64,000 nucleotides of DNA from Azolla caroliniana. Taxonomy: Eukaryota; Plantae; Polypodiophyta. Where the stretch lies: the NCBI GenBank assembly GCA_043228905.1, contig JBHGNT010000014.1, positions 3,348,001-3,412,000 on the forward strand, read 5' to 3'. The notes under the pieces are model-generated. The model searched no databases. It was not told the DNA's origin and saw nothing but the letters and a program-made list of their open reading frames with translations. Of the stretch, positions 13,346 to 62,069 are shown one piece after another. Within the stretch, counting starts at the first letter, position 1, and the number at the start of each line of letters is the position of its first letter. The position numbers were made by a program, and so were the translations under genes.

Positions 13346-13774
13346 AACTCCCCCTTCACTCTTGTGGGGATGGATGGAGTCTGTTATTCCTATCCTTTGT
13401 CGACAGACTCTAAGTTGGTCCATCGGTAGGTTCTTCGTCAGCATGTTAGATCCATTGTCATCAGTATGGATCTTCATGAGGGTAAACTCTCCTTCTTCGA
13501 CTTTCTCCCGTATCCAATGATGTCTTCTCTATATGTGCTTGGTCCGGGAGTGGTATGCAACATTCTTGGCTAGATGTATGACACTTTGGCTGTCACAATG
13601 AAACAAGAAATCCTTTTGCTTCATCCCCAACTCATTGAGAAAGTTTCTCATCCAAATCAGCTCCTTGTCGGCCTCTACCATTGCCACCTCTGTGGTCGAC
13701 AAGGCCACAGACTTCTGCAGTCGTGACTACCACGACACTGCTCCCCCTCCATAGGTCATCACGTACCCTGACGT

Positions 13775-14600
13775 TGTCGTAGTGTAATTTGCACACTACG
13801 TGAAAATTGCATTTTTGTTCCTCCGGATGGGACAAGGAGGACCCAGTAAGGAGAACCGGTGAGAATTGACAAGGAGGACCTGGTAAGGAGACCCGGTAAG
13901 AACCGGATCAAGCAAAACCAGCAAGAACCAGATAAAGAAGGCTGGTGAGAGTCTCTCACCGGATGAAGAGACAAATTTATAAATAGAAGAAAAGATTGTT
14001 ACATGCATATGGCGAGATTCAAACCCTGTACCTCCACGTAAACAAACCCCAACCTTACCATTGTACTAACTTAATACATATAAGACCTTTATTTACGCCT
14101 ACCTTTATTAAAAGGTAAGTCATGCATTTTTAGAATGCGTGAATACTTTATTTATAAGAAAAATGTACACCAATAAAAAATTACTCGTGCACATCTAGCG
14201 AGCATGAGCACTATATTTAGGAAATAAAAACATAGTGTAAGAAGCAACACATGCACATTTAGTGCGCATGAACACTTTAGGAAAAGCATGAAGTTATGCT
14301 TAGCCTTTTCCATCCTTATATAAGGAGGAGAGAAAGATGTATGGTGTTGTTGATTATTTTACAAGGATTGATCAATCTAATATATTCGTGGGATTCACGA
14401 GTTTATCATCAAAATTCTCTTTCTTACAATCTAAATATTGATTAAATACACTAAAAACATGGGATTCACAAGTTTTATTTCTTACTTCTCTTTCTACCTA
14501 TTCATAACTAGCCTTATATTGTATTCTTCTTTCTCCTAGTCCAAAACCTTAGTGGTTCCCACCCGACTCACTGAACGATCTGGAGCCGAAAGGCATGACA
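13775..14600 (+). mobile_element. Solo LTR (826 bp) nested in the copia RNase H region
   Basis: Termini TGTCGT...ATGACA flanked by a 4-bp duplication ACGT. Removing it restores the RNase H reading (DSSR-P/S-TSGYVMTYGGGAV). TATA-like TATATAAGG at about 14317; orientation is inferred from that motif. Confidence 0.8.
14007..14068 (-). promoter_or_regulatory. tRNA-like Pol III A/B box module inside the solo LTR
   Basis: Minus strand: A-box TAGTACAATGG (14068-14058) and B-box GGTTTGAATCT (14025-14015), starts 43 nt apart. Confidence 0.55.
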
Positions 14601-17600
14601 ACGTGGGTCGGCTTGAGTCTCCACCCCCTGACATGTCTGAGTTGGTAAACCCTTCGAGCATGGGTTTTCTGACACCATACTTAAGACACACCCCCGAGGT
14701 GCATTTTAAGTACCTAAGTATCCATTTCATCGTTGCCCTGTGTTCTCGTCCTGGATTACTCATGTATCGGCTTACTATTCCCACAGCAAAAGCTATGTTT
14801 GGTCTCGTGCAGACCATAGCATACATTAGACTGCCGACGACTGAGGCATATGTTACTTTCCTCATCTCAGCCTTTTCTTTCTCCCCTCTCGAGCATTGCT
14901 TTGCATTTAACTTGCAGTTAGTCGGTAACACAGAGCCGACCGACTTTGCTTTCGACATGTTGAATATTTCTAGGATCTTAGTCACCTATTTCTCTTGTGA
15001 CAACCACAACACTTTCTTAGTTCTATCTCGAACTATATGCATCCCTAAGATTTGTTTAGTCGGTCCAAGATCTTTCATTGCAAACGATTTTCCTAGAGCT
15101 TTCTTCAAGTTTCCGATCTTCCTTGTATCTTGACCGACTGTCAACATGTCATCTACATATAACAAGAGAATCAAGAAGTCAACTTCGTCGTACCTTTTGA
15201 CGAACAAAAAGTGATCAACCTGTGTTTTCTGGAACCTATGTTCCACCATAAAGGACTTGAACTTCTTGTACCATTGGCGTGGAGCTTGTTTCAACCCAAA
15301 CAAGTTTTTCTTCAGTCGACACACCAAGTTCTCTTTCCCTTTCTCCTCAAAACCTTCAGGCTGCTGCATGTAAATCTCTTCATCTAGCTCCCCGTGCAAG
15401 AATGTTTTCTAGACATCCAACTATTCGATCTCCATATCCATACTAGCAAATATGCTCAGAACAATTCTAATGGATGTCATCTTCATGATTGGAGCGAATA
15501 TTTCGTCAAAGTTGACACCCTTTTTCTGTCGAAACCCCTTCACCACAATGCGGGCTTTATACCTTGGCACATTGTCGACTTCTCCGATCTTCACCTTGTA
15601 GACCCATTTGTTCCTAAGTGATCTCTTACCTTTCGGTAGCTCTACTAGGTCGTCGGTATAATTCTTGTGCAAAGAATCCATCTCATCTTGCATCGCGCTC
15701 AACCATTTCTCTTTGTGCTTGTTAGCAATGGCTTCATCATAGCACTCTAGCTCACCTTCAGTAGTCAAGAGGATGTATTCACTAGCATATGTTGTCAATG
15801 CTCTCCTTTCTCTGAGTGGGTATCTCCTTCCACTCATTATCGGCTTCAGTTCAGATGTCTCTGCCGACTCTACTCTTGGCTCAAGTTCATGTATGTCGAT
15901 TTGCTTCTAAAGGTTGGATGACTCCAATTCGTATTCCTTGATCGATCGTAACATCTCTACCGACTCAAACTCATAGTCAGTCGGTCTCTCCGAGTCAACC
16001 AACTCGGATTCGACTATGCCGACTGGCTGTCTCGGAACAACTGACTGCGTCGATTCAATTGGCCTTAAGTCGATAGTAGTGGAGGTTGACTGATTAGTCA
16101 ATTCCGACTTTTGTTGCTTCCAGTTCTCTATGGTCTTGTCTTCCAAGAAGACTGCGTCCCAACTCCTCACTACCTTCTTGTCGACTAGGTCCCATAACCT
16201 ATAGCCAAACTCATCTTCTGAGTATCCCATGGATATGCATGGTTTCAACTTACTGTCGAGCTTTGACCTCTGATCCTTAGCTACATGCATGTACCCTAGG
16301 CATCCGAACACCCTCAGGTGTCAGTAGGAGACATCCTTTCCTGTCCACACTCTTTGTGGGACATCACCTTTCAATGGTATTGAGAGGGACCTGTTGATCA
16401 AATAAACAGTCGTGTACATTGCCTCATCCTATCATGAATACATAAACATCATCACTTTATCTTCTCTCTTGGTTGTGACACATCCCAGTATATTTTCGGC
16501 AGTTTAGCATGCGACAACATGCTCCTTACTCTCTCCATGATTGTCTAGTTCATCCTCTCTACAAGCCCATTCAACTCAGGGGTTTTCGATACTATGTATT
16601 CGATTTGAATACCTTGGGCCTTGTAGTATTCCTTGAACTGCCCTTTATATTCGTCACCATTGTCATTTCGGATAGCCTTCAACTTCCAACTTGAATCTCG
16701 TTCAACTCTTGCCTAGAACTCCTTGAAAAATGAAAGCCCACAACTTCCGACTGTAGTCGTCGATGAAAGTCACAAAGTATTGTCCGCCCCAATGCGACGG
16801 AGAATCTACATAACACACATCTGTGTGTACCAGTTCCAGTGCAGCTTCTCTTCTTCTTGGTGGCCATGTGTGGAATGGTGCTCTGTTATGCTTTCTAACT
16901 AAGCAGTCGACGCTCTCCAGGTGCACTCCATTTACTTCTGGTAGAAGTTTCTGGTCGGCCAATAGAGCAGTCCCTTCTCACTCATGTGGCCTAGCCTTTT
17001 ATGCCATATCTATCCTGCCGATTCAGCTGTCACATTCACTTCCGACTTGCTCAGTCAGGCTTGCATCATATACAATGTGCCTTCCTTCTGTGCTCGGACC
17101 ACTATAAGATTTCTTTGGCATAACTTCCACTTGTCATTCCGAAAACTACCATTGTAGCCTTTGTCATCCAATCTTCCAGTCAATATCATATTCAATATGA
17201 TATCGGGGACGTGTCGAACATCTTTCAGAGTCAGTTGACACCCTATCGTCGTCGTTAGGCAGACACTTCTGATTCTTACTACCTTGCACTCCCCATAGTC
17301 ACCCATCTTTACATAACCATGATCACCGGCTATGTAGGTCGAGAAATACTCTCTCAACGGAGTTATGTGGAAGGATGCACCGGAGTCGATCACCCAAGTG
17401 CATTCTTCGCTTGCAAGATTGGCATTTTTCTGTTAAAAAATGAACAAAAGTTCTTCATTGCTCGTAGCAATGCTGAAGTGTACTTTTCTTCAGGAATCTT
17501 CCTGGGTTCGACATTATTACCGACACTCTTTTCCCTTTTAAGGTGTCAACATTCCTTCTGAAAATGTTTAGGCTTTCTACAATAAAAGCACACGAGCTTT

Positions 17601-20638: not shown

Positions 20639-21643
20639 TGTTGGGCTAAAAGTCGGGCACTCTACCCAAATATGTACTCTTAATGTGAGCATGTCCTCAC
20701 AGTTAGGTCTTAGTTACCCTAACTATAAAAAGTGAGAGATTGAGCCTTGTAAAGCAATTCGGCGGGATTTGGAATACGATTGTCTCTTGAACTCTAACCA
20801 TGTAATTATCATCTTCTTTCTCTTTCTCTGCATACTCTTAATCACAGATTGAACAATGCACCAACATATTCTCACTTGTCATCTGTTTGCTTGATCCATA
20901 CACAAAGGATCCTATTTGCTATTCTGCAACTAGTCAGTTGATCATCTCACACTAACCGACTAAAGTACACCCATAGTGCTCACAAAGTGATAGTAGAGCA
21001 ATCTTGGAATCCAACAACAGCAACCATACAAGGAGAAGATCAAATTGGATGAAGAAAAGGACCAAGTCAAGATCTCACTTCCACAAAATGATGGCCTTGA
21101 CATTCGACACCAACAACAAGATCAGAAAATTTGACGGCAAGAACTTTGCCCTTTGGAAGGAGGTGATGCAGGATGTACTGATCATTCGGCATCAAGTTGA
21201 GGCGATACGACACAATGCCAATGCGACCTCAATGATATCAGAAGAATGACGCACTTGGCTAAAAACTTCTATTTTAGCATGGCCAAAGAGACGTCGGCAT
21301 ACACCATGTGGGAGAAGCTCCAGGCCATGTACGAGAAGAAATCGTCTTCGTTGAAACTCATTTTGATCTGATAAGTGTTCAAAATGAAGATGAAGGAGTC
21401 GGAACTGACAACCTATCACATCAACACCTTTAGCTGGGTGTTAGCCGAACTCTCCTCTCAAGGGCTAAACTTCGAAGAAGAAATCAAAGCCCTTGCATTT
21501 CTCTCGAGCCTGTGAGCGAGTTGGGAAGTATTCTACACACAATTCATGAATAACTCCCTGAAGTTGACGTTAGATGAGGCTATCAGAACGATACTATTGG
21601 AAGACATCCGACGAAGGTCAATGGGGCTCTCCATTGACGATAG
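20639..21643 (+). mobile_element. 5' part of a copia element (LTR about 20639-20984, degenerate PBS, gag), interrupted by the gypsy at 21644
   Basis: TG..CA block with TATAAAA at about 20724. PBS-like TGATAGTAGAGC at about 20988. Gag IRKFDGKNFALWKEVMQD is homologous to the gag at 37383-37958 and resumes briefly after 31013. Confidence 0.75.
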
Positions 21644-22099
21644 TGTTACCCGGACTCGGACAGTCAGTTTTACCGAACAAATGGGAAAGCGTCGAAAACG
21701 GAGTCGGTTCGGATCGACTGTTCGGATCAATGACTCAGCAGTGAACAAAGAGAACTAAGTTAGTTAGATAATTTTGTAATTCTTGATAGTAAGTAGGAAT
21801 AGTTCTTGATGAGAAAAGACCTTCGGTATACCTATAAAAGGGAACCGAAGGCATTGTAAGAAAGGTCGTTTATTTAGTAATATAAGTTAAAGTTAGGAAT
21901 ATCATGTACGGATTCTGTGTTCTTTCTATTGTCTATGTTGTTAAGTGCAAGCTTCCTAATTTATAACTAAGTAACGATCACAGTAATTACCGATTAATAT
22001 AGTATAATTCCGTTCGTAAAACACAATTCCTTGTTAGAACGTTGAGTAGCAACGTTCACTCTTCTGTATCGGTAGTAGTTAGTAATTAGCCGATTAACA
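21644..22099 (+). repeat. 5' LTR of gypsy 21644-31008
   Basis: TGTTA...TAACA termini; TATAAAAG at about 21833. Confidence 0.95.
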
Positions 22100-22110
22100 C
22101 AGAAGAAATT

Positions 22111-22123
22111 TGGCACGCCCGGT
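22111..22123 (+). promoter_or_regulatory. Primer binding site (probably tRNA-Arg)
   Basis: TGGCACGCCCGGT, the Arg-type PBS known from Tat/Ogre-related gypsies. It lies 11 nt downstream of the LTR end. Confidence 0.75.
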
Positions 22124-22158
22124 TACATCTGCAATTAAGCAGAGAACAAATCGAATGG

Positions 22159-25100
22159 ATGTCGTATGAAGAGGAGACACCGGTCAGTTGTAAGCGCCCT
22201 CGTACAAGGTCAGTTACGAAGGTAGTGCAGCAAGCGTTCATTGCGCAAGAACAGCCGGAATCAAGCACAAAGTGGTCGAAACTTCCTGACTTATCCGATC
22301 AATTACCTTCAGACGAAAAACAGACGGAAGAGGTATCGTTTTACGACATTTGGGACGATATGCCTTATACTTATTCTAAGTTCCGGGAAGGAACAGATGC
22401 GGAAGCACATGTTAGGGATTTCTTAACGACATGGGAGATTAACCATGGAGCTCAGCGATTGTCGGCAGATGCCGAAGATAAGTCAAAAATCGCTGAGTTC
22501 GTCTTATCATTAGAAGGATATTCCGCCAATTGGTTTGCGCAGAACGGTCTTCAAGGATTTCCATCCTTTGAAGTGTTAACTAGTAAATTTTTACAATTAT
22601 TTCATCAACAAATTCCGCAGAAGGATTTGATTGCGCAATTTTATGCGTTATATCAAGAAAAAAATGAAACAGTATCTCAGTTTGTGATACGATTTCAGAA
22701 CTTACAGCTTCAGATTTCAAGGCCGATTCCGGATAAGGAATTAAAAGAAGTCTTTCTAGAAGCTGTAAAAGAACCATTAAGGACGACATTGAAAGTGTTC
22801 GATTTTCGAAATCAGACTATCGAATAAGTAATTGATAAAGCAATAGAAATGGGTCGACCACCGGTCAATGTTCAGAGTATGGACATGTCGGCATTACACC
22901 GTACATTACCAACAATAGAGGAGTTACAATTTCGACAAGCAGTTCAATGCACCACTTGTTTAAATACGGGGCATTCGGCAATTGAATGTACGTTAAGAAC
23001 ACATTGTACAATATGTCATTCAAAATTACATTCAGTAGAACAATGTGAATATAATCTGCTTAATAAAACTACGACGTCAGTACGACAAATTTTTACTGAC
23101 AATGGTTACCAAAATAACACTAATCTGTTCAATGGTTATCAAAATAATAATTTTTCACAAAATCAGCAAAATGTACAACAAAATCCGGTTCTACAGCCAA
23201 ATCAGATCTTTTCACAACAAAATATGCAACCCACTCAAGTGACTCAAGCATTTCAACCAGGTTTTGCTCAATCCAACCCACCATTCGTACAGAATCCGAA
23301 TCAATATTTTCAACAAAATAATCAAAGTTTCCAACAAGGTAACCCACCATTTCAAGGGTTTCAACAGAACGGTCCGAATGTGCAACCGAATTCTACATAT
23401 CAACCAAATCCGGCATTTCAACCGGGTAATATGACCTTTCAACATAATACTCAAACCGTTCCACAAAATAATCAAATGTTTCAACAGAATAATTTTCCGC
23501 CAAATCAGGAGTTCGAGATAACACAAAATGTAGCACAACCAAATGATAATACCGAACAATTTAGGCAGAATCGGTATAAAAATAAGAGATTTTACAAACC
23601 AAAAGCTACGCGTCAATACCAACAAAACCCGAGTGGTAATGAAGAGCAGCAATTTAATAACGGCCAATTTGCACATGGAGAGACCGGTGGAACATTTGTA
23701 CCCACTTGTTATATTTGTCGACAACTAGGCCATTATGCTAATCAATGTCCGGTTAAAGGAAAGGGTTCAGCAGTTAATATGGTAATACCGGAAGTTCAGC
23801 AAGTAACGACACGCAGCAAAAGCAAACAATCAGAGTGGGAAATTCAGGAAGAAGTTCGGAAGGCGGCAAAAGAATGGGTTGACGAAGCAAATCAAAGTAA
23901 TGTGAATCGAATGTTACAAGACAATAACATTGACCAGAACATCGTTGTACAACAGTCATTGGGGAATAAGGAACAGGAAGAAACTTGGAAACTGTTGGCT
24001 GATTGCCAAGTGTCATTGCCACTTACGGGCTTACTTAAGTTAGTACCAAGGTTTACAGAAAAAGTGGCAGAATTAATTGCATATAAAGGTTCCGAACAAA
24101 TAGCAGTACACTACAATAAGCCAAGTAATAACCCTTCGATCATGGATGAACAGAATCCGTCGATTAAGGTAATACTTTACGGGCAAGAAGTCGGAAATGT
24201 GATTATAGATGGAGGCTCGAGAGTTAATGTGATTAACAAAGCTACATGTGAAAAACTAGGAATCACGGAATGGGAAGCATGTCCGTTTTGGTTACGAATG
24301 GCAGATACAAGTACGGTACGACCGATTGGTTTGCTTCGACAACTGGATGTAATAATCGGGGGACACAGTTTTCAGATTTCGGCAGTAATTTTGCAGTTAG
24401 AAACACAGGGAGCATACCCCTTGTTATTGGGGAGACCATGGTTAAAGACAGCTAATATCAAACAAAATTGGAAACAAAATGTGCTAACATTTAGGAAAGG
24501 AAAAACTAAGGTCAGGATTCCGACGCACAACAAAGTGACAACAAGCAAACAGAGTTTACCCGTACATGCAGAAGCAGTTAATATGATGGAAGGATTGGAC
24601 GAGGAAGAAGAAAGTCAGTATTTCAATGATAATAAAAAAATCATCCCTCTATTTGAGGTAGATATTTTGCAAGCATTAACACCATATGTAGACTCACACG
24701 AAGAAGTGCCAATAGATGAACAAACAATGAAAGAAATACGAATGCAACAAGAAGCTACAGATAAGGAAATGAAGGTATCGCAGAGAGTGCAAGCCTCAGC
24801 ATTGGAGGAGATCGATTTGGCAGGAGTAGAGGATGGTGAAAGAAAAACAGTCTTGATTGCTAGAGATTTGGCAGAAAATGACAAACGGACATTAACAACA
24901 TTACTATTACAATATAAAGATGTTTTTGCATGGTCGTTTGACGATATGAAAGGTCTGGATCCCGCTTTTTGTCAACATCAAATCAATTTGCATAAAGATG
25001 CAAAGCCAGTACAACAACGCAGGTACAGGTTGAATCCGAATTATGCTATCAAAGTTAAAGAAGAAATCGATAAACTCTTAAAAGTAGGATTTATTCGACC

Positions 25101-27650
25101 CGTCAAAAAATCAACATGGCTGAGTCCGATAGTAGTAGTCCCAAAAAAGAATGGGAAAATTCGCGTATGTGTGGATTACAGAAAATTGAATGCAGCGACA
25201 ATTACGGATACGTTTCCGTTGCCATTCACAGATGGGATATTAGATGCAGTAGCTGGACATGAAATTTATAGTTTCTTGGATGGGTTCAGTGGGTACAACC
25301 AAGTACGGATGAATCCGGAAGATCAGGAAAAGACAGCTTTTGTCACAAAATGGGGTGTCTTTGTGGCAGTAGTAATGATGTTCGGTTTAAAAACAGCTCC
25401 AGCTACATTTCAGCGAGTAATACAGGAAATATTCGGGGAATATATTCCAGCTTTCATGCAGGTGTTTTTAGATGATTTTGCGGTATATAGTCGGAAAGCT
25501 AATCATTTTGAGCATTTATGGCTATGTTTAGAAAAATGTCGAAAAGGGCGTCTTAGCTTAAATCCAGCCAAATGCGCATTCGGAGTTATGAGTGGTACGT
25601 TACTTGGGCATATTGTCAGTCAAGAAGGGATTGCAGTGGACCCAGACAAAGTTAAAGCAATTATGGAGGCAACACCACCAACAAATGCTAAAGCTCTGAG
25701 TAGATTTTTGGGTCAAATTCGGTGGCACAGTAGAATGATGAGATATCTAGCAGACATTGCTATTCCGTTACACACAGCAGTACACAAAGTTCCTTTTATA
25801 TGGACAAGTATAGAACAGGATGCATACGAATGTCTCAAGAGGATGCTGACAAAGGTTCCGGTAGTTCAACCACCGGACTGGAACAAACCATTTCATGTTT
25901 TCGTCGATGCGTCGGACATTGCCATAGGCAGTGCTTTAATGCAATTATCCGAACCAAACTGGTATAGGCCGGTATACTATGCCAGTAGGAAACTTTCGTC
26001 GGCCGAAAGAAACTATTCAACAACCGAAAGAGAAGCTTTGGGAATGATATATAGTGTGAACAAATTTCGACATTACCTTTTGGGTAAGAAATTTACATTT
26101 CATGTGGATCATTCGGCTCTACTGTATCTAGTTTCCAAACAAGAACTGACAGGCAAGTTAGCCAGATGGACGTTATTGCTTCAAGAGTTTGAATTCGACA
26201 TTATACATCGACCAGGAGCACAGCACGCGATTGCTGACTATCTCAGTCGGCTTGAATATGGAGAAGAAGCGGTTGGTGTTAAAGATGATTTTCCAGATAC
26301 TCAATTATTTCGGGTTGAGGCAGTAAAAGCACAAGAAATGAATGAGGAAAAAGAGGATGAATGGATTTCCGAAATGACGATATTTCTATCAACAGGAATT
26401 CCGGCCGAACACATGTCGACAGATGAAAGAAAAAGAATTGCAGTATAAAGTCAAAATTTTTGTTTATTTAATGACATGTTGTATCATAAAGGAGCGGATG
26501 GAATATGGCGAAGGGCAGTACGGAAATTTGAAAAATTAGCCATATTAACAGAGTCACATTGTGGAATTGCTGGCGGTCATTAGCAGGAGAAGCAACAACC
26601 AGAAAAATATGGAATAGCGGGTTATGGTGGCCAACGGTGATGAAAGATGCTAACGAATACTGTAAGAAATGCGATTTGTGTCAAAGAATGGGGCAACCAA
26701 CCGAAAAGGATCGAATGCCTTTTCAACCGGTTTGACCTCTTGAGCCATTTCAGAAATGGGGCTTAGATTTTGTTGGCCCATTCAAACCAGCAGCTGCAAG
26801 AACCAATAATCGATATATCATAATTGCGACTGACTATTGCACAAAATGGGTTGAAGCAAAAGCTCTCAGAGACAATACAACAGCATCCACAGCAAAATTC
26901 CTGTATGAAAATATATGGTGTCGATTCGGTTGCCCAATAGAATTGGTAAGCGATCAAGGCACTCATTTTATTAACAAGTTAATATACGAATTAACTAATT
27001 ATTATGTCGTAGTTCATATGAAAAGTACGCCTTACTATCCCCAAGCTAATGGATTGGCAGAATCGACAAATAAAACAATTCAAACAATTTTAAAGAAGAT
27101 AGTGAATGAAAATCGTACTGATTGGGATCAAAAGTTAAATAGTGCATTATGGGCATATCGTACTTCGTACAAAACATCCATTAAATCAACACCTTTCCGA
27201 ATGGCATTCGGACTTGAAGCCGTTATGCCGATCGAATTTCAAATTCCGACACTTCGTATCCAAGCGACGAATAAGTTAAATGAAATAGAATCGGAGCAGA
27301 TACGCAAAGAGGCTTTATTAGTATTCGAAGAAGAACGGATTCAATCAATGTCAGCACTAGAACACAAGCAGAGACAAATTAAGGCATTCGTAAATCGACA
27401 TCGAAGGAAATCGGAAGAGCAATTCGAAATTGGGAAACCGGTATTGGTATTCCAGACGAAAATGGGACTTATGCCTGGGAAACTCCGGTATAGATGGACA
27501 GGTCCAGTATGGATAATTAATAGTAAAAATGGTACGTATCAGCTGGGATCATTAACCGGAGAGGCTTTACCGAAATGGGTAAATGGATTCCGGCTTAAAC
27601 CGTATTTGGGAGATATGTCGGTAAACCCGTTTATTCAAACGGAAGAGTAA
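22159..27650 (+). pseudogene. Gypsy gag-pol polyprotein (single frame, disrupted)
   Basis: ORFs 22159-22827 and 22849-26448 are in the same frame with an internal TAA. Three CCHC knuckles, PR IIDGGS, RT CVDYR/FLDD, RNase H VDAS..DHSAL, INT (GLDFVGP, SDQGTHF, YYPQANGLAE). Further stop at 26446, frameshift at about 26581, stop at about 26733. Confidence 0.93.
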
Positions 27651-27850
27651 AAAAAAAAATTAAAAAAAAAAAAAAAAACTAACTCAATAGTTCTTGTCAA
27701 ATGTAGAAATACAATCTTGCCATAACAGTCTTAATCGACTATAAATAGAAAGAGGAATTGCATGATTATTAGTAAATAGTACAACCACTACACGTAGAGT
27801 TAATACTAATTAATTCCTACATTAATAGCAATTACTATTCTTTAGTCATA

Positions 27851-30508
27851 ATGCATAAGTTAATATCGTTAAAGCATATTTCCGTATCTTCTGTGTCGCC
27901 AAAGCAACAGAAACGAGTGCAGATATCAAAATATTCTGAGCCTTCGTGCCCTAGCTCGCCCAAACTCTGTTTTTCTGATTTTCATCGCTACAGAAGCTGT
28001 GAAGATCTCCAACCGTCATCGACAAGTGATTCAGAACAAGCAAACACAGAAGTCATGCCGATTCCTGTGTCTGAAGAACTGCGACTGTGGCTTCATGAGA
28101 GAAACTTACAAGGTTTCATCAAAGTAGCAGAAGCGGAACCTCATCCGCAGGCGGAAGAATTGGTACAACAACTAGACATCACCAAGGTTACCACAAAGAA
28201 AATACGAAATGCATTACAGATGCCAAGAGGAGGCTTTGAGGCAGTTAAAAAACCTTCATCAGAAGCACTCCAATCGTATTTCGGGGAATACTCACCCTCG
28301 GCAAAAGCATATCAGACTTATGGAGGTCGGGATGAGTTTTTCCATGAAGTGGCTAGATTTTTATTAGAGGTGGGATTTGTCAGTCCTCGTTTTTATTGTA
28401 TGCCGAAAAAAAGGGTTGGGTTTATCATAGCCGCATACGAAAAAGAGGATTTCAACTGGCCACTATTGTCGGGGGAAGCTCTGAGAGAGCAGCTACAAGG
28501 GGTAAAAACAGGAAAACCAATGAAGCAAATTTTTGGTCGTTGGCTATCGGTATTGTTTCCGATTCAAGAATCGGAAACTCCTGTTCAGTCAAGAAGACCA
28601 CCGATAGTACAAGCACCGCGAAGACACCGACAGGTAGTACATGAAGAATGGATAGAGGAAGAATCGGCACATGCCGATAATATACAAACGGATATGCCTC
28701 AGTCGGAACCACCAAGACCAGAGAATCCCGAAAACAGGCAACCAGCAGCCGAACAAGAAACAGTTGACCATTTGATAAACAAGCAGCAGCCGACAGAAAA
28801 TCGACAACAAGCGGAGAAGATGCGACAAAGGACAAGGGTTAAACAAAAGGCTAATCGGCAATTCCAACCAGAAAACAGGGATGGGTCAGCACTGAAAAGG
28901 CAACGCACAAAGGAAAATTTGAATACGCCTGTAGTAGCAGAGAATGAGAGCGTTTCGACACAACCTCAACAAGGACAATCTTCAAAAGTAGCAATTCGGG
29001 AAGCACATGGGTACTTGGATATTCCACCAGCAGCACATGAATTAGCGGCCATTTTACAGTTCGGAACTTCATACGAACTGGTTGAATGGTTGGCTAAAAG
29101 ATTGACAGAAGTATCAGAACGGCTAGCTCAAGAACATAATGACCGAATAATGATACAGAAAGCCTTACAAGGAGTGTTGGAACCTCAAGAAAAAGCAGAG
29201 ATAGAGAAAATCGGCCGGAAAAGAAATGCACAGAATAGAGGAGAGGCTATTGAAATGCCACCATTACATGAAGCACTGGTCGAAATTCATAAAGAATATG
29301 AAACGGCACGCAAAGCAGCCAGTGATATGGCTGAAAGATACAAAAGTGTATCAGCATCGGCGGAGGTGCTGAAACATCAGTTTTGTAACATACAGGCAGA
29401 AAATAAAGAACTAAAAGAAAGTCTAAACAAATGGGAAACGCAGGCACGGCCTATGGCGTCGGAGTCAGAATGGCAGCAGAAATTGGAGGACGCTGAAAAA
29501 GCACGTCAAGCAGAAACAACAAGGGCCAACAATGCTGTACTTCGAACTACAGAATTAGAAAAACAAATAGAAACTATTCAAAATGGCCAATACAAAGTTC
29601 TCGAAGAAAAAAATCAATTAATAAACGAATTACAGAAAAATCTCGAAGAAGCTAAGACGGCCAATCATACATATACCGAACAAATTGAGGAATTCGAAAG
29701 GTATATAGTGTCACAGGAAAGTCAATTGACAGAAAAAGAGCGGAGTCTTGAAGAAGTCAACAGAAGAATTACGGAACAGCAGGAGGAATGGAGCAAAGAG
29801 AAATCGGCATTCGAACAACAACTGAACGAAATTCGGAAGATATCGGAACAAAGGTGGCTGGACATATATGTAGTCGAATCCAAACTAATGCGAGCTGAAA
29901 GTGAAAACCGAGCTACTATTACGGATTTACGGAAAGAGTTGCAAACCGCTCAATACGTCGCAAGCATCACTAAGGACAAAGTGCAGCACATCATAGGGAA
30001 ACATCGAATCCTAGCAAAGAAAATGATCGATGAATCCCTTGCGCAAGGATGGAAGTTATGGACGGCACAAGCGGCAGAATTACAGTTATTGCGCGCCGAC
30101 AAAAATAACCGTCAGGTCCAAGGTGCAGGTTTTTTTAAAATGGCACAAAAGGATATTGACAATATCCAAGAGGATATCATGAAAGATATGGACGAAATTG
30201 CGGCATTTTACAGAGAAGAAATTCAACGTATTATGCAAGAATTCGACAAAAATGATATAGGCACTTCCGTCCAGTTGGATAAAATCGAAGCCGAAAGAAC
30301 CAGCAAGACTCCTGGTCTTCAAGCTCCCGGAAGATGTGAACTAGAGCAGCCAACCGAATCACAACATTCAAAACCTGCTCCGAATGACGACTGTGACACA
30401 GATGAAGATGAAGATGAAGAGGAAGATATAGATGGAATACATCCAAGGCCAGAAGAGCCTTCGATTTTTGATATTCTGAACGATTCGGATGAAGAGCTAC
30501 AGGAATAG
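27851..30508 (+). CDS. Extra retrotransposon ORF (885 aa): N-terminal globular region, Q/E/P-rich linker, long coiled coil, acidic tail
   Basis: Uninterrupted 2.66-kb ORF between INT and the 3' LTR. Heptad-like E/K/Q/L-rich region in the C-terminal half; DEDEDEEED tail. No obvious signal peptide or TM segment. Confidence 0.85.
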   Translation: MHKLISLKHISVSSVSPKQQKRVQISKYSEPSCPSSPKLCFSDFHRYRSCEDLQPSSTSDSEQANTEVMPIPVSEELRLWLHERNLQGFIKVAEAEPHPQAEELVQQLDITKVTTKKIRNALQMPRGGFEAVKKPSSEALQSYFGEYSPSAKAYQTYGGRDEFFHEVARFLLEVGFVSPRFYCMPKKRVGFIIAAYEKEDFNWPLLSGEALREQLQGVKTGKPMKQIFGRWLSVLFPIQESETPVQSRRPPIVQAPRRHRQVVHEEWIEEESAHADNIQTDMPQSEPPRPENPENRQPAAEQETVDHLINKQQPTENRQQAEKMRQRTRVKQKANRQFQPENRDGSALKRQRTKENLNTPVVAENESVSTQPQQGQSSKVAIREAHGYLDIPPAAHELAAILQFGTSYELVEWLAKRLTEVSERLAQEHNDRIMIQKALQGVLEPQEKAEIEKIGRKRNAQNRGEAIEMPPLHEALVEIHKEYETARKAASDMAERYKSVSASAEVLKHQFCNIQAENKELKESLNKWETQARPMASESEWQQKLEDAEKARQAETTRANNAVLRTTELEKQIETIQNGQYKVLEEKNQLINELQKNLEEAKTANHTYTEQIEEFERYIVSQESQLTEKERSLEEVNRRITEQQEEWSKEKSAFEQQLNEIRKISEQRWLDIYVVESKLMRAESENRATITDLRKELQTAQYVASITKDKVQHIIGKHRILAKKMIDESLAQGWKLWTAQAAELQLLRADKNNRQVQGAGFFKMAQKDIDNIQEDIMKDMDEIAAFYREEIQRIMQEFDKNDIGTSVQLDKIEAERTSKTPGLQAPGRCELEQPTESQHSKPAPNDDCDTDEDEDEEEDIDGIHPRPEEPSIFDILNDSDEELQE

Positions 30509-30552
30509 GCGTGGGTTCGCTGGACAAGGTCCTGGTCCACGAACGTGCCAAG

Positions 30553-31008
30553 TGTTACCCGGACTCGGACAGTCAGTTTTACCGAACAAGTGGGAAAGCG
30601 TCGAAAACGGAGTCGGTTCGGATTGACTGTTCGGATCAATGACTCAACAGTGAACAAAGAGAACTAAGTTAGTTAGATAATTTTGTAATTCTTGATAGTA
30701 AGTAGGAATAGTTCTTGATGAGAAAAGACCTTCGGTATACCTATAAAAGGGAACCGAAGGCATTGTAAGAAAGGTCGTTTATTTAGTAATATAAGTTTAA
30801 GTTAGGAATATCATGTACGGATTCTGTGTTCTTTCTATTGTCTATGTTGTTAAGTGCAAGCTTCCTAATTTATAACTAAGTAACGATCACGGTAATTACC
30901 GATTAATATAGTATAATTCCGTTCGTAAAACACAATTCCTTGTTAGAACGTTGAGTAGTGACGTTCACTCTTCTGTATCGGTAGTAGTTAGTAATTAGCC
31001 AATTAACA
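30553..31008 (+). repeat. 3' LTR of gypsy 21644-31008
   Basis: Direct repeat of 21644-22099, followed by TSD GATAG. Confidence 0.95.
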
Positions 31009-38715: not shown

Positions 38716-39292
38716 TTCACTTATGGAGAAAGTTGCCCTTCTTTGTAGTGTCAGATCAAGGGCCTCAATGGAACTATCAACTTCTTCTTCTTTTCATAAA
38801 GATTTCCTTCATTAGTATTAAGAAAAGCGTTAGAGGGCTACAAAAATGTAAAGTCGGAGAGTATTATATACAAAAGAAATAGTCAGGGCAAGGACTAGGG
38901 GTGATTATATTTCCATAACGGTCCTTGAGAGGAGATTGTGAACAGAGGCAACTTCCTCCATAATTGTAGTAATTTTTTCCTTTTCTTCAAAACAACCTCC
39001 GAAGAGCCTGGTAGAGGAAGTGAGAAGAGGAGAGAGAGATAGCGAGGATGAGAGAGAGAGAAAGATGATGACAACAGCTAATATATTATGTGAAAAGATA
39101 AGTACAAAGTGGCTAAGAGGCTTAAGACTGGCGTTGAACCAATTTGGTTCAACATAATGTCTAGTGCCTTCTTTTATAGTGTTGTCAGGAGTAATCCTGA
39201 AACTTCTAGAATGTTCCAGAGAAATCTGGAATATACATTACTTTCTTATAATAAAACATAAATGAAAATAATATCCTATGAATTACAATAGA

Positions 39293-39355
39293 TGGTGTGA
39301 TGGTTAAGAGCTCGACCCATATACCATAAGGTCATGGGTTCGAGTCTTGCCATAT
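39293..39355 (+). promoter_or_regulatory. tRNA-like Pol III A/B box module in the LTR (second copy at about 43850-43912)
   Basis: A-box TGGTGTGATGG at 39293-39303, AAGGTC variable-loop-like segment, B-box GGTTCGAGTCT at 39337-39347. Starts are 44 nt apart, as in tRNA genes. Confidence 0.6.
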
Positions 39356-42280
39356 CATGACACTATCTCCCCCTTAACGACGACGAGTGGAACGAGTCGG
39401 TGCTGATTGCGGACCGGGTTTGTTCGGATACTTTTGCTGATCAACTCATACTCCGGGCCGGCGTCCAACTCGAGCAGGGGCGGCAGTGGTGTAACACGAT
39501 TGGGAATGGTGTTGGCTTTATAAGGTTCAAGAAGAGAACAATGGAAAACTGGATGTATCTGAAGCTGCGAAGGGAGATCAAGGCGGAATGTGACATCATT
39601 AACCTTACCCGTAATACGGAAAGGACCGAGTCGTCGATAATCCAACTTGTTGCACGGTCGAGTAGTCTTGATGTGACGACATAAGAGCCATACTCGATCT
39701 CCGATGGCAAAAGAGGAGGGAAGCCGATGACGATCCGCGTAAGTCTTCTGTGTCTGTTGAGCATGACGAAGATGAGTTGAGAGATCTGTTTGGATCTTGC
39801 GTAGTCTCTCCAAATGATCCCCGGCACGAGGATTGGTAGGTAGTTCCGGGGTGTCAATCACCGACCAACGAGGATGAGAACCGGTATAAGCGTAGAATGG
39901 GGAGACTCGAGTCGAGGAGTGAACAACATTATTATACGCAAACTCCGCAAAGTGGAGAATCTCGGCCCAATCGTCCTGCTGATAACTCAAGAAACACCGG
40001 AGATATTGCTCCAGCGTTTGGTTTGTTCGTTCCGCCTGCCCATCGGTCTGAGGATGGTAGCCGGAGGAGAGGTTGCAAGAGACCTTGAGCATCTTGAAGA
40101 GATGCTGCCAAAATTTGGAGACAAATTGCGGTCCTTAGTCACTGATGATACTATCTGGGAGGCCATGATGCCGAAATACCTCACGCATGACTAGGGCGGC
40201 GGTTTCCTCGCTAGTGATGGCCTTAGTACACGGAAAGAAATGTGCCATCTTCATATATCGATCGACAACGGTTAAGATAGCATCGAACCCCTGCGAGACC
40301 GGCAGATCTGTGATAAAATCAAGACAAATAGACTGCCACGGCTTACTTGGAATCGGTAAGGGTTCCAATAAGCCATATGGATGGTGTCGTGGCATCTTTG
40401 CTCGGCAGCAAGCATCACAGGTCCGAACGTAATCGTCAACAAAATGGCGCATGTGGGGCCACCAAAAAGATCGTTGCACTAGCTCCAACGTCTTAGTACT
40501 ACCGAAATGTCCCGTTGTATGGGTGTCGTGACAATGCTGGACAATTTGAAGGCGACATGAGCAATCAGGGACATATACGCGCTTTTTAAAGAATAACAAA
40601 CCATTATGATATTCGAATTGTCGGTAGTCAATACCTGGTTGTTGAGACTGAGAACAAGATGCCCGAGAAGTATCAATGTGTGCCAGGATGTCTTGACCAA
40701 AGCTATCTGTCTTCAAGTTTGCACGTATGTCATCGGTAATCCGTGAATCCATCGGGGTGTGAAAAATCCGTGTCATGTGCAATCGTGTTGGTCCCAAGAT
40801 TACTTGCTTTTGATTATCAAATGTTGGATCACCAGGACGAGGTGCAAGATACGAACGTCGTGATAGTGCATCTGCTTTTCCTTGCTGCTTCCCCAGTCAA
40901 TATGTGATTTTGAAGTCGAAATGCGTGAGGAATTGCGCCCACCGAGCTTGCCGTCGATTTAGTACGCGAGCGTTCTGGAAATAAGCAAGATTTTTATGAT
41001 CACTAAAGACAATGACCTAATGTGGAGACCATTCTCGCGGAGTCGTTTTAGTACTAATAGTACATGAGAATCGTGCTCTTGCTGGGTCTTCGAATAAATC
41101 AATAGATCATCCAGATAGATGATCAAACAGATATCCAAGAGGTCTCTGAATATATCATTTGTCATGTGTTGGAAGACTGCGGGTGCATTGGTTAAGCCGA
41201 ACAGCATAACAGTATACTCGAAATGCCCATATCGCGTGCGAAAGGCGGTCTTCCATTCATCTCCCGGTCGGATCCGCACGAGGTTATACGCTCCTCGTAG
41301 ATCGATTTTGGTAAAAAACTTGGCACCATTAACTCGCTCCAAAAGACTTGATATAAGAGGAAGTGCATACCTATTCCGGATGGTGACCTTATTCAATCCG
41401 CAGTAATCAACGACGAGACGAAGTGAGCCATCTTTCTTCTTGACAAAGAAGATGGGTGCACCGGCCGGAGATTTCGAATGACGGATGAACCCGCTTGCCA
41501 AGTTCTCCTCTATGTAGGCTCGAAGGACTTCTAACTCGGTGGGTGACAAGTTGTAAATTGGTCCCCATGGTGGCTCGATTCCTGGTTGTAAATCGATGGG
41601 ACAGTCATAGGGACGGTGATGAGGAAGGGTACTGGCTTTTACCTTGTCAAATACATCGGTATAAGGATGATATTTTGCCGGAAGTTGTACTGAGGAGTCC
41701 TTCTTAATAGTGCTGGAAGGATGCACTGATATTGCAAATAGGAACATTGCCTCCTTGTGTCCTTCTTCACGTAATTGATGGAGTGAAATGGTCGAAACTC
41801 GGTGAGTAGATTCTTGGGGTGGTCGATATCGGACTTCTCTTGTTCTCCAATCTATGGCTGGATTATGTAATTCAAACCAAGGTAATCCTAGGACAATGGG
41901 ATGCTCTGGACTACTAATTATATTAAATGATATTACACACACAAAACTACCTAGGACAACTTGAATGGATTCTGATTCTTCTACAATATTCCCAGAAGCA
42001 ATGGGACGACCATCAATGACTACTACAGATGCGGGACAAGGAAGTTTTCTTAAGGATATCTGAGAAGCTTGGGCAAAATTTCGATCCATGAAACAGGAAT
42101 TAGCTCCGGAATCTAAAAGTGCTAGGACGGGTACTGGAGGAGTACTTTTAGTACTAACAATGACTTGGGCTAGGAACACATTGCTAACTTGCTTAGAAGG
42201 AATGGAACCACTAATAGGCTGTACAGATCTAGGGTTGCTGTCCAACCAAACGGCTCCTATTTTGGCTGGACTCAATCGTT
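39355..42280 (-). pseudogene. pol: Tcn1-like pol (PR-RT-partial RNase H-INT) with deletion and frameshifts
   Basis: ORFs 40959-42275, 40135-40797, 39355-40092. RT jumps directly into the late RNase H motif (FSDHKNL) near 41025. Confidence 0.85.
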
Positions 42281-43429
42281 TAACTCTTCATCTAATTGAC
42301 TAAGGACTTCAAATTTATTTGAGATACTTGGGCTATTAGTATTATGAATACTATCTGACACCCTATTAGTACTATTAATACTATCAGACACTCCGAAGGG
42401 AATAATTGACTCGGGTTTAGTACAGGCGACGATTTGATTTACCTGTCTTCTTGGCCTATGGGGACAATTGATGGCGATATGCCCTGGTCCACCGCAATAA
42501 AGACATAATCGATTGGCACGCCGTCGTTGCTTTTCTTCTTCCGATAATGGGCCGCGTCGACGCATGGTGTCGATCTCCATCGGTGTCGGAATATTGGCTT
42601 GAGGTACATCGCGTGCAAATGGTTTAGCCGTGACTGGGGCGTATGTGGGTTCCGGCCGAGAGCGTGGCATTTGTAACTGACGTTCCGAACGCCGTTCGAA
42701 AAGGTGATTGTCGCATCGGACCGCTCGACTGATTGCCTTCGTAAGAGACTTTGGTTACTCGAGGAAGGTTAAAAGCAAGTCTTTGACATCGTTGCGCAAG
42801 CCATAGCGAAACTGCTCCATGAGGGCCTGATCATCCCAGGGGATATCTGAGGCGAGTAGGCGGAAATCTACCGCGTAGGCCAAGGCTGGACGATCGCCTT
42901 GACGCAATCTTCGGATCTTGTTGATCACCGTCCTGATGTTGTCGGTATCTCCAAAGCAAGCTTTAAACTCACCAATAAAATCTTCAAAGTTATTAAGCAA
43001 GGGTGATTGTTTTTCTAGAAGTGGAGCGAACCATGCCAAGGCTGAGCCGCTAAGTAACGTGCCTATTAGGCCGACTCGAGATGCATCAATGGGATATCGG
43101 GAAGGATGCATCTGGATGACTAAGCATACCTGATTAAGGAATCCCCGGAATTGCGATCGTGTTCCATCAAATTTCACAGGAAGTCCAATCTTGGGCTCTT
43201 TATGAAATCCTTGGGGACTTGATCCTTGTTGTTGCAACGCTACTTCGAGTTGTTGTACCCGTAACGCTAACTCCCCATGTTGTTGTTGTGTTTGTTGTTT
43301 TTCGAGAGCGATTTGTTGCAGATCCCCTATCAACCATTGGTTTTCTTGTTCCAGGGCAACAAACTTTTCTTTTAGACACTGTAACTCGGAGAAAACGGAT
43401 TGATATACTTGGGCACTAACAGTAGCCAT
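42272..43429 (-). pseudogene. gag: Tcn1-like gag (frameshifted near 42755)
   Basis: MATVSAQ.. coiled-coil N-terminus, retrotransposon gag capsid region, CCHC knuckle, ends LDEELND*. Confidence 0.85.
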
Positions 43430-44339
43430 AGTATAGGGAAAAGGGTAGGAGGAAAGGAAGAGAAATTGGTTCAAACTGTCAGGAATAGTACTAAAGCAGA
43501 GATGGAATTAGTACTAATAAGAGAAGTACTATTAATACTAAGAAGATGGGACTGCGTGAGATTCCCGGGAGAGGAAGTGAGAAGAGGAGAGAGAGATAGC
43601 GAGGATGAGAGAGAGAGAAAGATGATGACAACAGCTAATATATTATGTGAAAAGATAAGTACAAAGCGGCTAAGAGGCTTAAGACTGGCGTTGAACCAAT
43701 TTGGTTCAACATAATGTCTAGTGCCTTCTTTTATAGTGTTGTCAGGAGTAATCCTAAAACTTCTAGAATGTTCCAGAGAAATCTGGAATATACATTACTT
43801 TCTTATAATAAAATATAAATGAAAATAATATCCTATGAATTACAATAGATGGTGTGATGGTTAAGAGCTCGACCCATATACCATAAGGTCATGAGTTCGA
43901 GTCTTGCCATATCATGACAACAAGAGATTGGAATAGAACTATCGACTTCCATGGACCCTTTCTTGAATATTAGTAGACCATGCCAGTGTACCTCATCAAG
44001 TTTCAACACCCCTTTATAAGTTCCTATATTTGGCCTTACGATAACTGTACATAAAATGTTGTAAGCCTCTGGACAGCTAACTTCAAGTTGTAGCTTTCAG
44101 GTGTTTTTTCTTAATACTAAAGAAAATCTCTCAAGGAAAAAAAAAACACACAGTTTTCCATCAATTCATTTTCCATTACTTCAACTTCTTTAAGCACACT
44201 TTGATGCAAGATTGTCTCTAGTTACATGATATTTTCAAATTTTCTTTCAACACTTTTGAGCACAACTTATTTTCAGATTTTTTTCTTCAGATTTCCCACC
44301 AATAATATAATCATTACTAAAAGAAGACTATTTTCTTAC

Positions 44340-61680: not shown

Positions 61681-62069
61681 TGTAACACCCCCATTTTTAT
61701 TTTGAGAGAGAGAAATGAGGTTGTGACATCGGTACCAAAGTTCTTCTTATCGATCCTTTCCCATAAACCAATCATTGTTGCCATTATACCTTTTGCATCC
61801 CTTGTTGCTACCCATTGATGTTGCTTGGTCACGTCTATTTCATCAAGTTTTCCATAGGTATTTTGCGGTCTAGCGTGGAAGCAACATTACGTTGTCGTGA
61901 TGACGCGCGTGTGTGTGCTACTCAAGTGGGACCACGATGGTCTTGGACTAGGAAGTAGAAAGGATGGAAGGCTCGATGAAGATTCGGCGCGTCAACTTCG
62001 TCTCCCCAAAAAGTCAACATGTTGACTAGACATACCATCAAGCAAAAGTCAACGTATCTAAAAGGTCAA

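What the first reader, a model, noticed from the sequence alone, without database searches (positions are those of the whole stretch)
14007..14070. A second, dissimilar LTR carries the same kind of tRNA-like module with the same GCCATAT tail
Seen: the solo LTR minus strand reads TAGTACAATGG-TAAGGTTGGGGTTTGTTTACGTGGAGGTACAGGGTTTGAATCTCGCCATAT. The Tcn1-like LTR reads TGGTGTGATGGTTAAGAGCTCGACCCATATACCATAAGGTCATGGGTTCGAGTCTTGCCATAT. Similarity is concentrated in the A-box, TAAG, AGGT, B-box and CTYGCCATAT, while the anticodon-arm region has diverged. Both LTRs end CATGACA on the + strand and, judged from their TATA boxes, both modules are antisense and upstream of TATA. Inference: selective retention of the boxes in two diverged LTRs suggests a functional, lineage-wide feature rather than chance SINE debris.
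Basis: partly seen in the sequence, partly recalled or inferred. Interest (0 to 1): 0.7.

Follow-up and report, generated by a model that had tools for sequence, protein, structure and literature searches.

The report
Backward tRNA promoter in retrotransposon LTRs
Several protein-coding plant jumping-gene families from two distant branches carry, backwards near the start of their end repeats, a worn tRNA-shaped stretch whose two promoter boxes and spacing are kept while the middle has drifted, so it likely serves as a docking site for the host's tRNA-gene transcription factors, a role not yet tested.

Summary
The module at 14007-14068 is real. A generic tRNA-promoter scan finds only it and the Tcn1-type module in 64 kb (shuffles: 0.07 expected). 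It lies antisense in U3 of an 826-bp solo LTR. The shared GCCATAT tail is mostly a coincidence of this copy: 17 of 18 fetched relatives read GCCCTAT. The parent is not Tcn1. It is a chromodomain-less Ty3 with NCGN 4-bp targets (Phygy-like), about 27% RT identity to the Tcn1 family. A third family (sister Tcn1, one contig) has the same antisense module with a different tail. Between families, A-box, variable loop, B-box and spacing are kept, while the spacer is near shuffle level and the rest of the LTRs do not align. 73 of 75 host-type motif hits sit in these LTRs; no clear free SINE was seen. Selaginella SM-Tcn1 lacks it (by eye). Best reading: a captured tRNA-derived Pol III promoter kept as a TFIIIC site beside the LTR's Pol II promoter, not the replication promoter. 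No expression or binding data. Closest known: Helenus/TRIMp3. The scan noted antisense tRNA relics in other genomes' retrotransposons, not this module.

The parts
13775..14600 (+). 826-bp solo LTR of a Phygy-like non-chromovirus Ty3 family, inserted in the RNase H region of a copia element
   Evidence: TG..CA ends; paralogous empty site; contigs that skip it (table 5); relatives with PPT and integrase upstream
13771..13774 (+). left 4-bp target-site duplication (ACGT, NCGN type)
14601..14604 (+). right 4-bp target-site duplication
14058..14068 (-). A-box of the tRNA-like module (0 mismatches to the generic box)
14034..14057 (-). spacer (former D-arm 3' side and anticodon arm), diverged, no cloverleaf
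14025..14033 (-). variable-loop / T-stem 5' block, conserved within and between families
14016..14024 (-). B-box; invariant C (14021) is T in this copy, likely CpG decay
14007..14015 (-). tail shared with Tcn1-type family A only; this copy carries the minority allele at 14010
13990..13993 (-). first T4 run, 22 nt after the B-box: candidate Pol III terminator
   Evidence: 22-24 nt in 5 of 5 solo-family copies checked, 19 nt in family B
14317..14323 (+). candidate Pol II TATA box of the solo LTR
   Evidence: sequence; a similar box at the matching place in L100 (by eye)
43477..43919 (-). 5' LTR (443 bp) of the Tcn1-type element, family A
   Evidence: full-length relatives of 427-447 bp
43850..43912 (+). 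tRNA-like module in the 5' LTR, LTR nt 8-70, antisense to the element
43463..43476 (-). self-priming site just 3' of the 5' LTR, complementary over 12 nt to 43702-43691 (LTR nt 218-229, about 30 nt after TATA at nt 185)
39007..39362 (-). 3' LTR of the Tcn1-type element, cut short in U5, preceded by a PPT
39293..39355 (+). tRNA-like module in the 3' LTR, antisense to the element

Best explanation
The stretch is a tRNA-derived A-box/B-box module that lies backwards in U3 of at least three protein-coding Ty3 LTR families of this plant, and it likely works as a binding site for TFIIIC/RNA polymerase III that would keep the LTR's own Pol II promoter open or shielded from its flank. Shown: position, orientation, fixed spacing, presence in two distant Ty3 clades, loss of the cloverleaf, and a separate TATA and self-priming start for the genomic RNA of family A. 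Inferred: one capture in an ancestor of the two Tcn1-type families and a lateral gain (LTR recombination or a second capture of the same tRNA/SINE head) in the Phygy-like family; purifying selection on the boxes; TFIIIC binding; a boundary or anti-silencing effect, with or without a short (about 90 nt) antisense RNA. This particular solo copy is probably dead (B-box C lost).
For: Module beyond chance. Between families: spacer identity 0.29-0.44 against shuffled 0.24-0.35, A-box 0.63-0.66 against about 0.29, variable-loop block 0.63-0.95, B-box 0.84-0.93 (A and B partly by construction). Families A and B share only the module core and the self-priming R-start motif by blastn, so the module lasted as long as a site of known use. 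L100 shares a single blastn match with the window LTR, the module region. T8-G53 distance is 45 in 39 of 42 family-A copies and 44 in 12 of 14 solo-family copies with an A-box. A-box positions T8, G10, A14, G18, G19 are more conserved than other U3 columns (family A p=0.02, solo family p=0.08), while free position 12 shows 4 bases in family A. A T4 run follows within 19-24 nt in family B and the solo family. TFIIIC sites have barrier, insulator and nucleosome-phasing effects in yeast and the B-box C is essential for binding (PMC4228148, passages).
Against: No binding, chromatin or RNA data. Copies are related, so the p-values overstate independence, and R/Y swaps are also what transition bias gives. 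G10 is T in 5 of 14 solo-family copies and in family B. The variable-loop block and (A versus solo) the tail are conserved too, which TFIIIC binding does not require. In family A the spacer is as conserved as the boxes (0.92 against U3 0.88) and can pair with the B-box region. Family A has no T4 inside the LTR. B-box C reads intact in only about 42-54% of depth in the solo family (probably biased towards this copy's letter). My motif demanded the B-box C and the tail, so B-box conservation in fetched copies is circular. Family B rests on one contig. The same yeast passage also lists repression of nearby Pol II promoters, so the sign of any effect is open.
Confidence: 0.45

Rival explanations
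1. Neutral relic: related SINE heads or tRNA pseudogenes were caught in U3 and carried passively; the box-kept, spacer-drifted pattern arose earlier, in the SINEs.
For: SINE heads show this pattern (established knowledge). Insertion of a SINE into an LTR is the origin proposed for Helenus and Cassandra (PMC10886601). Family A's 5' end departs from its U5 inverted repeat right after nt 5, where the module begins, whereas SM-Tcn1 starts with the matching repeat (by eye): an insertion scar. Many solo-family copies have a decayed B-box.
Against: Needs two or three captures, all antisense, all in the first 115 nt or so of U3, all cut to the head. No free copy in 134,583 nt of host loci plus the window, apart from 2 ambiguous fragments (L067, L080). 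The module outlasted the rest of U3 in A versus B and in L100 versus the window LTR.
Confidence: 0.27
2. RNA-level site: on the genomic RNA the antisense module is complementary to a tRNA's D and T arms, or folds into a hairpin just after the PPT, and would help priming, dimerisation or strand transfer, as U3 of yeast Ty3 does.
For: Antisense orientation in all families is what an annealing site needs. Ty3 has the 3' part of its primer site in U3, pairing with the T and D arms (PMC5371799, passages). The variable-loop block, outside the boxes, is 0.95 identical between A and B. Family A's module folds into a long hairpin and the solo family's tail can pair with the T-stem side (single-sequence folds without shuffle control).
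Against: Family A primes itself. A-box matches between families are scattered single positions, not a run. The hairpins differ between families. No donor or partner tRNA stood out among 84 tRNA genes in the fetched loci, only one of them from a host-type locus.
Confidence: 0.2
3. Helenus/Cassandra-type replication promoter: Pol III makes the element's genomic RNA from the module.
For: Same kind of sequence in an LTR (PMC10886601).
Against: The module points away from the element. Family A has a TATA and a self-priming start downstream. The elements encode Gag-Pol over more than 5 kb.
Confidence: 0.03
4. Chance resemblance in AT-rich LTR DNA.
For: The pairwise match is not significant window-wide (21 of 40 shuffles).
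Against: 3 of 3000 LTR shuffles hold a module; the only two window hits are these; a third LTR family has it in the same orientation and region.
Confidence: 0.05

Closest known systems
Helenus / TRIMp3 (Kojima 2024, PMC10886601; main text parts 1-4 of 6 and one supplement passage read)
   Same: tRNA-derived sequence inside the LTR, conserved around boxes A and B, no working cloverleaf, proposed origin by SINE insertion, Pol III activity unproven.
   Different: Helenus are non-coding TRIMs of 311-1263 bp; the module is on the sense strand in the consensus entries I saw (including Helenus-1_SMo) and is proposed as the element's promoter. Here it is antisense, in Gag-Pol-coding families of two clades with their own TATA. 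The paper notes that 'not a few' LTRs hold tRNA-like parts but analysed only TRIMs.
Cassandra and Ajax (5S-derived LTR modules; as described in PMC10886601)
   Same: Small-RNA-gene promoter captured in an LTR and kept across families.
   Different: 5S-derived, non-autonomous; Cassandra RNA starts inside the module.
Tcn1 clade chromoviruses (PMC2864245 passages and supplement S3; PMC6317226 passages)
   Same: Families A and B: self-priming site, chromodomain with aromatic residues in L016 Pol, LTR near 440 bp, RT core close to SM-Tcn1.
   Different: SM-Tcn1's LTR shows no A/B-box module (by eye). The solo LTR of this finding is not from this clade.
Phygy non-chromovirus Ty3 (PMC6317226, passages)
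   Same: NCGN target preference, 4-bp duplication, no chromodomain, pol reaching the 3' LTR.
   Different: No Phygy reference sequence was at hand, so placement is by features only; whether moss Phygy LTRs carry the module is untested.
Yeast tDNA / ETC sites with extra-transcriptional effects (PMC4228148, abstract and passages)
   Same: A- and B-box sequence next to a Pol II promoter: the mode of action proposed here.
   Different: Shown in yeast chromosomes, not inside plant LTRs; no binding shown here.
Ty3 bipartite primer site in U3 (PMC5371799, passages)
   Same: tRNA-complementary sequence in U3 on the genomic RNA strand.
   Different: Family A is self-primed; here the match keeps tRNA spacing and promoter-type degeneracy.

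Membership tests
Helenus / TRIMp3 | tRNA-derived sequence with boxes A and B in the LTR | tested here: met
Helenus / TRIMp3 | short non-coding TRIM (about 1 kb or less) | tested here: not met
   826-bp LTR alone; integrase reading frame upstream of relatives; Gag-Pol in family A
Helenus / TRIMp3 | module placed to drive the element's own RNA (sense strand) | tested here: not met
   antisense in all three families
Helenus / TRIMp3 | Pol III transcription | not testable with these tools
   only contigs were available
Functional tRNA gene | cloverleaf with paired acceptor, D, anticodon and T stems | tested here: not met
   ARAGORN 0 in the window and at the modules in 52 host-type loci scanned with the tool; Rfam none
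tRNA-derived SINE (free) | dispersed copies with own body, tail and target duplication outside LTRs | tested here: inconclusive
Tcn1 clade (window element 39007-43919) | self-priming instead of a tRNA PBS | tested here: met
   12-nt complement after the 5' LTR in the window; same site in L070
Tcn1 clade (window element 39007-43919) | chromodomain with aromatic cage | tested here: met
   present in relative L016 (residues judged by eye); missing from the window copy
Tcn1 clade (window element 39007-43919) | RT groups with reference Tcn1 elements | tested here: inconclusive
   about 9 differences over 96 RT-core residues to SM-Tcn1, counted by eye; no reference in the tree
Tcn1 clade (parent of the solo LTR) | RT and integrase of chromovirus type | tested here: not met
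   integrase end has no chromodomain; nearest full Pol proteins have 26-30% RT identity to family A and form a separate 100/100 group
Phygy (parent of the solo LTR) | NCGN target preference with 4-bp duplication | tested here: met
   10 of 12 flank-side LTR starts, plus L008 3' flank and L100 5' flank
Phygy (parent of the solo LTR) | RT groups with reference Phygy elements | not tested
   no reference at hand; named relatives are liverwort and fern proteins

The most novel reading that the evidence does not exclude
Autonomous plant LTR retrotransposons of unrelated clades have co-opted, and passed between them, a backward tRNA-gene promoter at the outer edge of U3 that recruits TFIIIC/Pol III as a portable chromatin barrier or anti-silencing switch for their own Pol II promoter; every insertion and solo LTR would then plant a tDNA-like boundary in the host genome.
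Probability: 0.3. Interest if true: 0.75.

Novelty: new variant of a known kind. Interest (0 to 1): 0.5.

Why it matters
tRNA-like LTR modules are described for tiny non-coding elements, as their presumed promoter. Here the module is backwards, in coding elements that already have a Pol II promoter, and is shared across a deep split in Ty3. That points to a second use of Pol III signals by retrotransposons (evading silencing or insulating the promoter) and to exchange of U3 parts between clades. It is testable with one base change in the B-box. If neutral, it is still a marker of LTR chimerism and a source of false tRNA/SINE calls.

Tried and rejected
No whole genome is held for this window, so the genome-wide count asked for could not be made; metagenome loci were not searchable as records. 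ARAGORN and Rfam: nothing. The idea that the 826-bp LTR is a Tcn1-type LTR extended upstream (a whole-LTR local match beat 500 shuffles) was rejected: 2 of 143 real window tiles score as high, the score falls to background without the module, and cross-family profiles match only 20-33 nt around the B-box. My first reading of the loose ends at 14071 as a module-less subfamily (note 1) was wrong: they flank a deletion private to this copy. Donor tRNA: host-type tRNA-Arg(TCT) in L042 shares the A-box with some family-A copies, but spacer support is weak (60 to 1107 of 2000 shuffles) and it did not rank among the top 4 of 84 tRNAs for any of 6 modules. Retrozyme/hammerhead considered because of the 4-bp duplication: no Rfam match, and the family has integrase. 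Viral contigs gave one unrelated fungal-type Ty3 (L001) and two blanks. No RNA holder listed: no evidence either way. 45 of 120 motif loci were set aside as not from the host-type assemblies: 25 inside true tRNA genes, 20 others. Dropped before counts: near-identical duplicates (59 to 47 family-A rows, 18 to 16 solo rows after also dropping L067), 5 rearranged family-A copies; L001 and P0135 fell out of the RT tree. Literature searches found no description of an antisense A/B-box module in Tcn1 or Phygy LTRs; the library lacks most subscription papers and Repbase, and five .doc supplements of PMC2864245 could not be read.

Full report
Setting. The window is nested plant LTR-retrotransposon DNA: copia elements, a Tat-like element, a chromovirus and a Tcn1-type element. 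No whole genome is held. Tcn1- and Phygy-type elements point to a non-seed land plant (inference from PMC6317226).

The solo LTR. 13775-14600 interrupts the RNase H region of a copia element. A paralogue shows the empty site and contigs in two runs skip the insert, so the duplication is the 4-mer ACGT. The family is abundant in all four runs laid, labelled as four organisms.

Is the module real? The quoted letters are there. The two modules are 37 of 63 identical; as a pairwise match this is modest (18 of 2000 LTR shuffles) and not significant over the whole window (21 of 40). As a promoter-shaped object it is real: a generic A-box plus B-box scan at tRNA spacing (box patterns recalled, not from a call) gives 2 hits with at most 1 mismatch, these two modules, against 0.067 per shuffled window; 3 of 3000 shuffles of the solo LTR give one. 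At 2 mismatches there are 4 hits (the second Tcn1-type LTR and one in gag) against 1.2 expected; none lies in the copia, Tat-like or chromovirus LTRs. It is not a tRNA gene.

The tail. Across four runs, 14010 reads G in about 92-98% of depth and 14014 reads A in nearly all. So the family tail is one letter off the Tcn1-type tail at one place and closer at another; 17 of 18 fetched relatives have the family letter, against 2 of 57 in the Tcn1-type family. This copy also lacks about 26 nt just upstream of the A-box and has T for the invariant B-box C. About half the depth shares that T, but its CpG partner is changed in only 5-10% there against 6 of 16 among fetched copies, which suggests that laying on this copy favours its own letter; ordinary CpG decay is enough.

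LTR or free SINE? 75 come from assemblies holding this plant's repeats: 57 are Tcn1-type LTR starts (56 with the LTR terminus 7 nt before the motif, at most 1 mismatch) and 18 belong to the solo-LTR family. In 11 of the 18 the LTR start lies 98-114 nt upstream; 5 more continue as LTR sequence or have an eroded or diverged start; L067 and L080 are short fragments of unclear status. Counts include the same genomic site from different assemblies. The motif could not find a SINE with another tail. An unselected scan of the 134,583 nt of these loci plus the window found further LTR copies, one true tRNA-Arg gene (L042), a second fragment in L067 and one new module (L022), but no free SINE.

Whose LTR? 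In L023, L057 and L094 the LTR follows a purine tract and shared internal sequence; in L023 and L057 this encodes an integrase end without chromodomain. This fixes the orientation: the module is antisense. 10 of 12 flank-side starts follow NCGN, the preference reported for Phygy alone (PMC6317226). The nearest full Pol proteins (P0013 and kin; 71% identical to the family's integrase piece P0005) have 26-30% RT identity to the Tcn1-type family and form a separate group at 100/100; named relatives are liverwort and fern proteins. The link from LTR to RT is by homology, not on one contig.

The Tcn1-type element. Its 5' LTR is 43477-43919, with the module at nt 8-70, TATA at 185 and, at 218, a 12-mer complementary to the sequence just after the LTR: self-priming. 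Relative L016 has open Gag and Pol frames and a chromodomain and is close to SM-Tcn1 by eye. SM-Tcn1's LTR shows no module, and starts with the inverse of our U5 end (by eye), so family A's start changed after nt 5, where the module begins.

A third family. L022 2280-2374 is the start of a 3' LTR after a purine tract and a Pol end like L016's, with the same R-start palindrome. It carries the module antisense, at the same spacing as family A, with another spacer and tail. It is one contig. L100 is a diverged member on the Phygy-like side whose only blastn match to the window LTR is the module region.

What is kept. Between families the spacer is near shuffle level (0.29-0.44 against 0.24-0.35), the A-box 0.63-0.66, the variable-loop block 0.63-0.95, the B-box 0.84-0.93, the tail shared only by A and the solo family. 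A and B values are partly circular. Profiles of whole LTRs match across families only around the B-box. Within families, spacing is fixed and the five key A-box columns beat other U3 columns (p=0.02, p=0.08), with four bases at free position 12 in family A. Against this: G10 is T in 5 of 14 solo-family copies and in family B, family A's spacer is as conserved as its boxes, and copies are not independent.

Mechanism. The module cannot be the replication promoter: it points outward, and family A has its own TATA and self-priming start. The conservation pattern of the A-box (scattered consensus positions) fits protein binding better than base pairing. A T4 run follows 19-24 nt after the B-box in family B and the solo family but not within family A's LTR, so a short RNA is possible in two families, not a shared need. 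I therefore favour a TFIIIC/Pol III site acting on local chromatin beside the Pol II promoter (0.45), by analogy with yeast tDNA and ETC sites (PMC4228148). Rivals: neutral relic (0.27) and an RNA-level tRNA-annealing or hairpin role like Ty3's U3 (0.2; PMC5371799), which better explains the orientation and the variable-loop block. No donor tRNA could be named.

Comparison and verdict. It resembles Helenus/TRIMp3 but fails two defining features: it is not a TRIM and the module is antisense. My searches found no description of this arrangement; Repbase and subscription papers were not searchable. Earlier notes of this scan report antisense tRNA relics in retrotransposons of other genomes, mostly outside LTRs and unchecked here; sequence look-ups for both LTRs were blank. 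New variant of a known kind; interest 0.5.

Noticed in passing
PMC2864245 supplement S3, against window 43463-43476: SM-Tcn1, reported there as having no primer site, shows by eye a sequence right after its 5' LTR that is complementary to a stretch in the LTR downstream of TATA, the same self-priming layout as the window element.
   Followed up: partly
L022 2280-2374: Third LTR family (sister Tcn1-type) with the antisense module; its start folds back on an internal copy of the terminal 8 nt.
   Followed up: partly
window 13806-13996: This solo copy's subfamily has about 190 nt with short imperfect tandem repeats where most relatives have 60-70 nt of AT-rich DNA; nearly uncovered in run X13.
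   Followed up: partly
window 14525-14600: The LTR's 3' end draws several times more contig depth than the rest and ends in a small GAAA-loop hairpin: probably shared by many related LTR families. A weak match lies at 61926-61980 on the minus strand.
   Followed up: no
window 39007-43919: The Tcn1-type copy is internally deleted (no RNase H match, no chromodomain) and its 3' LTR lacks about 87 nt of U5.
   Followed up: partly
window 27776-30508: 910-codon extra reading frame without a Pfam match inside the Tat-like element 21642-31008 (5-bp duplication).
   Followed up: no
L004, L005, L012, L040 and 21 other loci: AT-rich contigs, probably organellar, with tRNA-Ser genes of only 74-77 nt in those checked (short variable arm), which match the motif.
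   Followed up: no
L067 940-1135: Two partial modules inside a short tandem duplication near a TATA-rich stretch, from another assembly.
   Followed up: no
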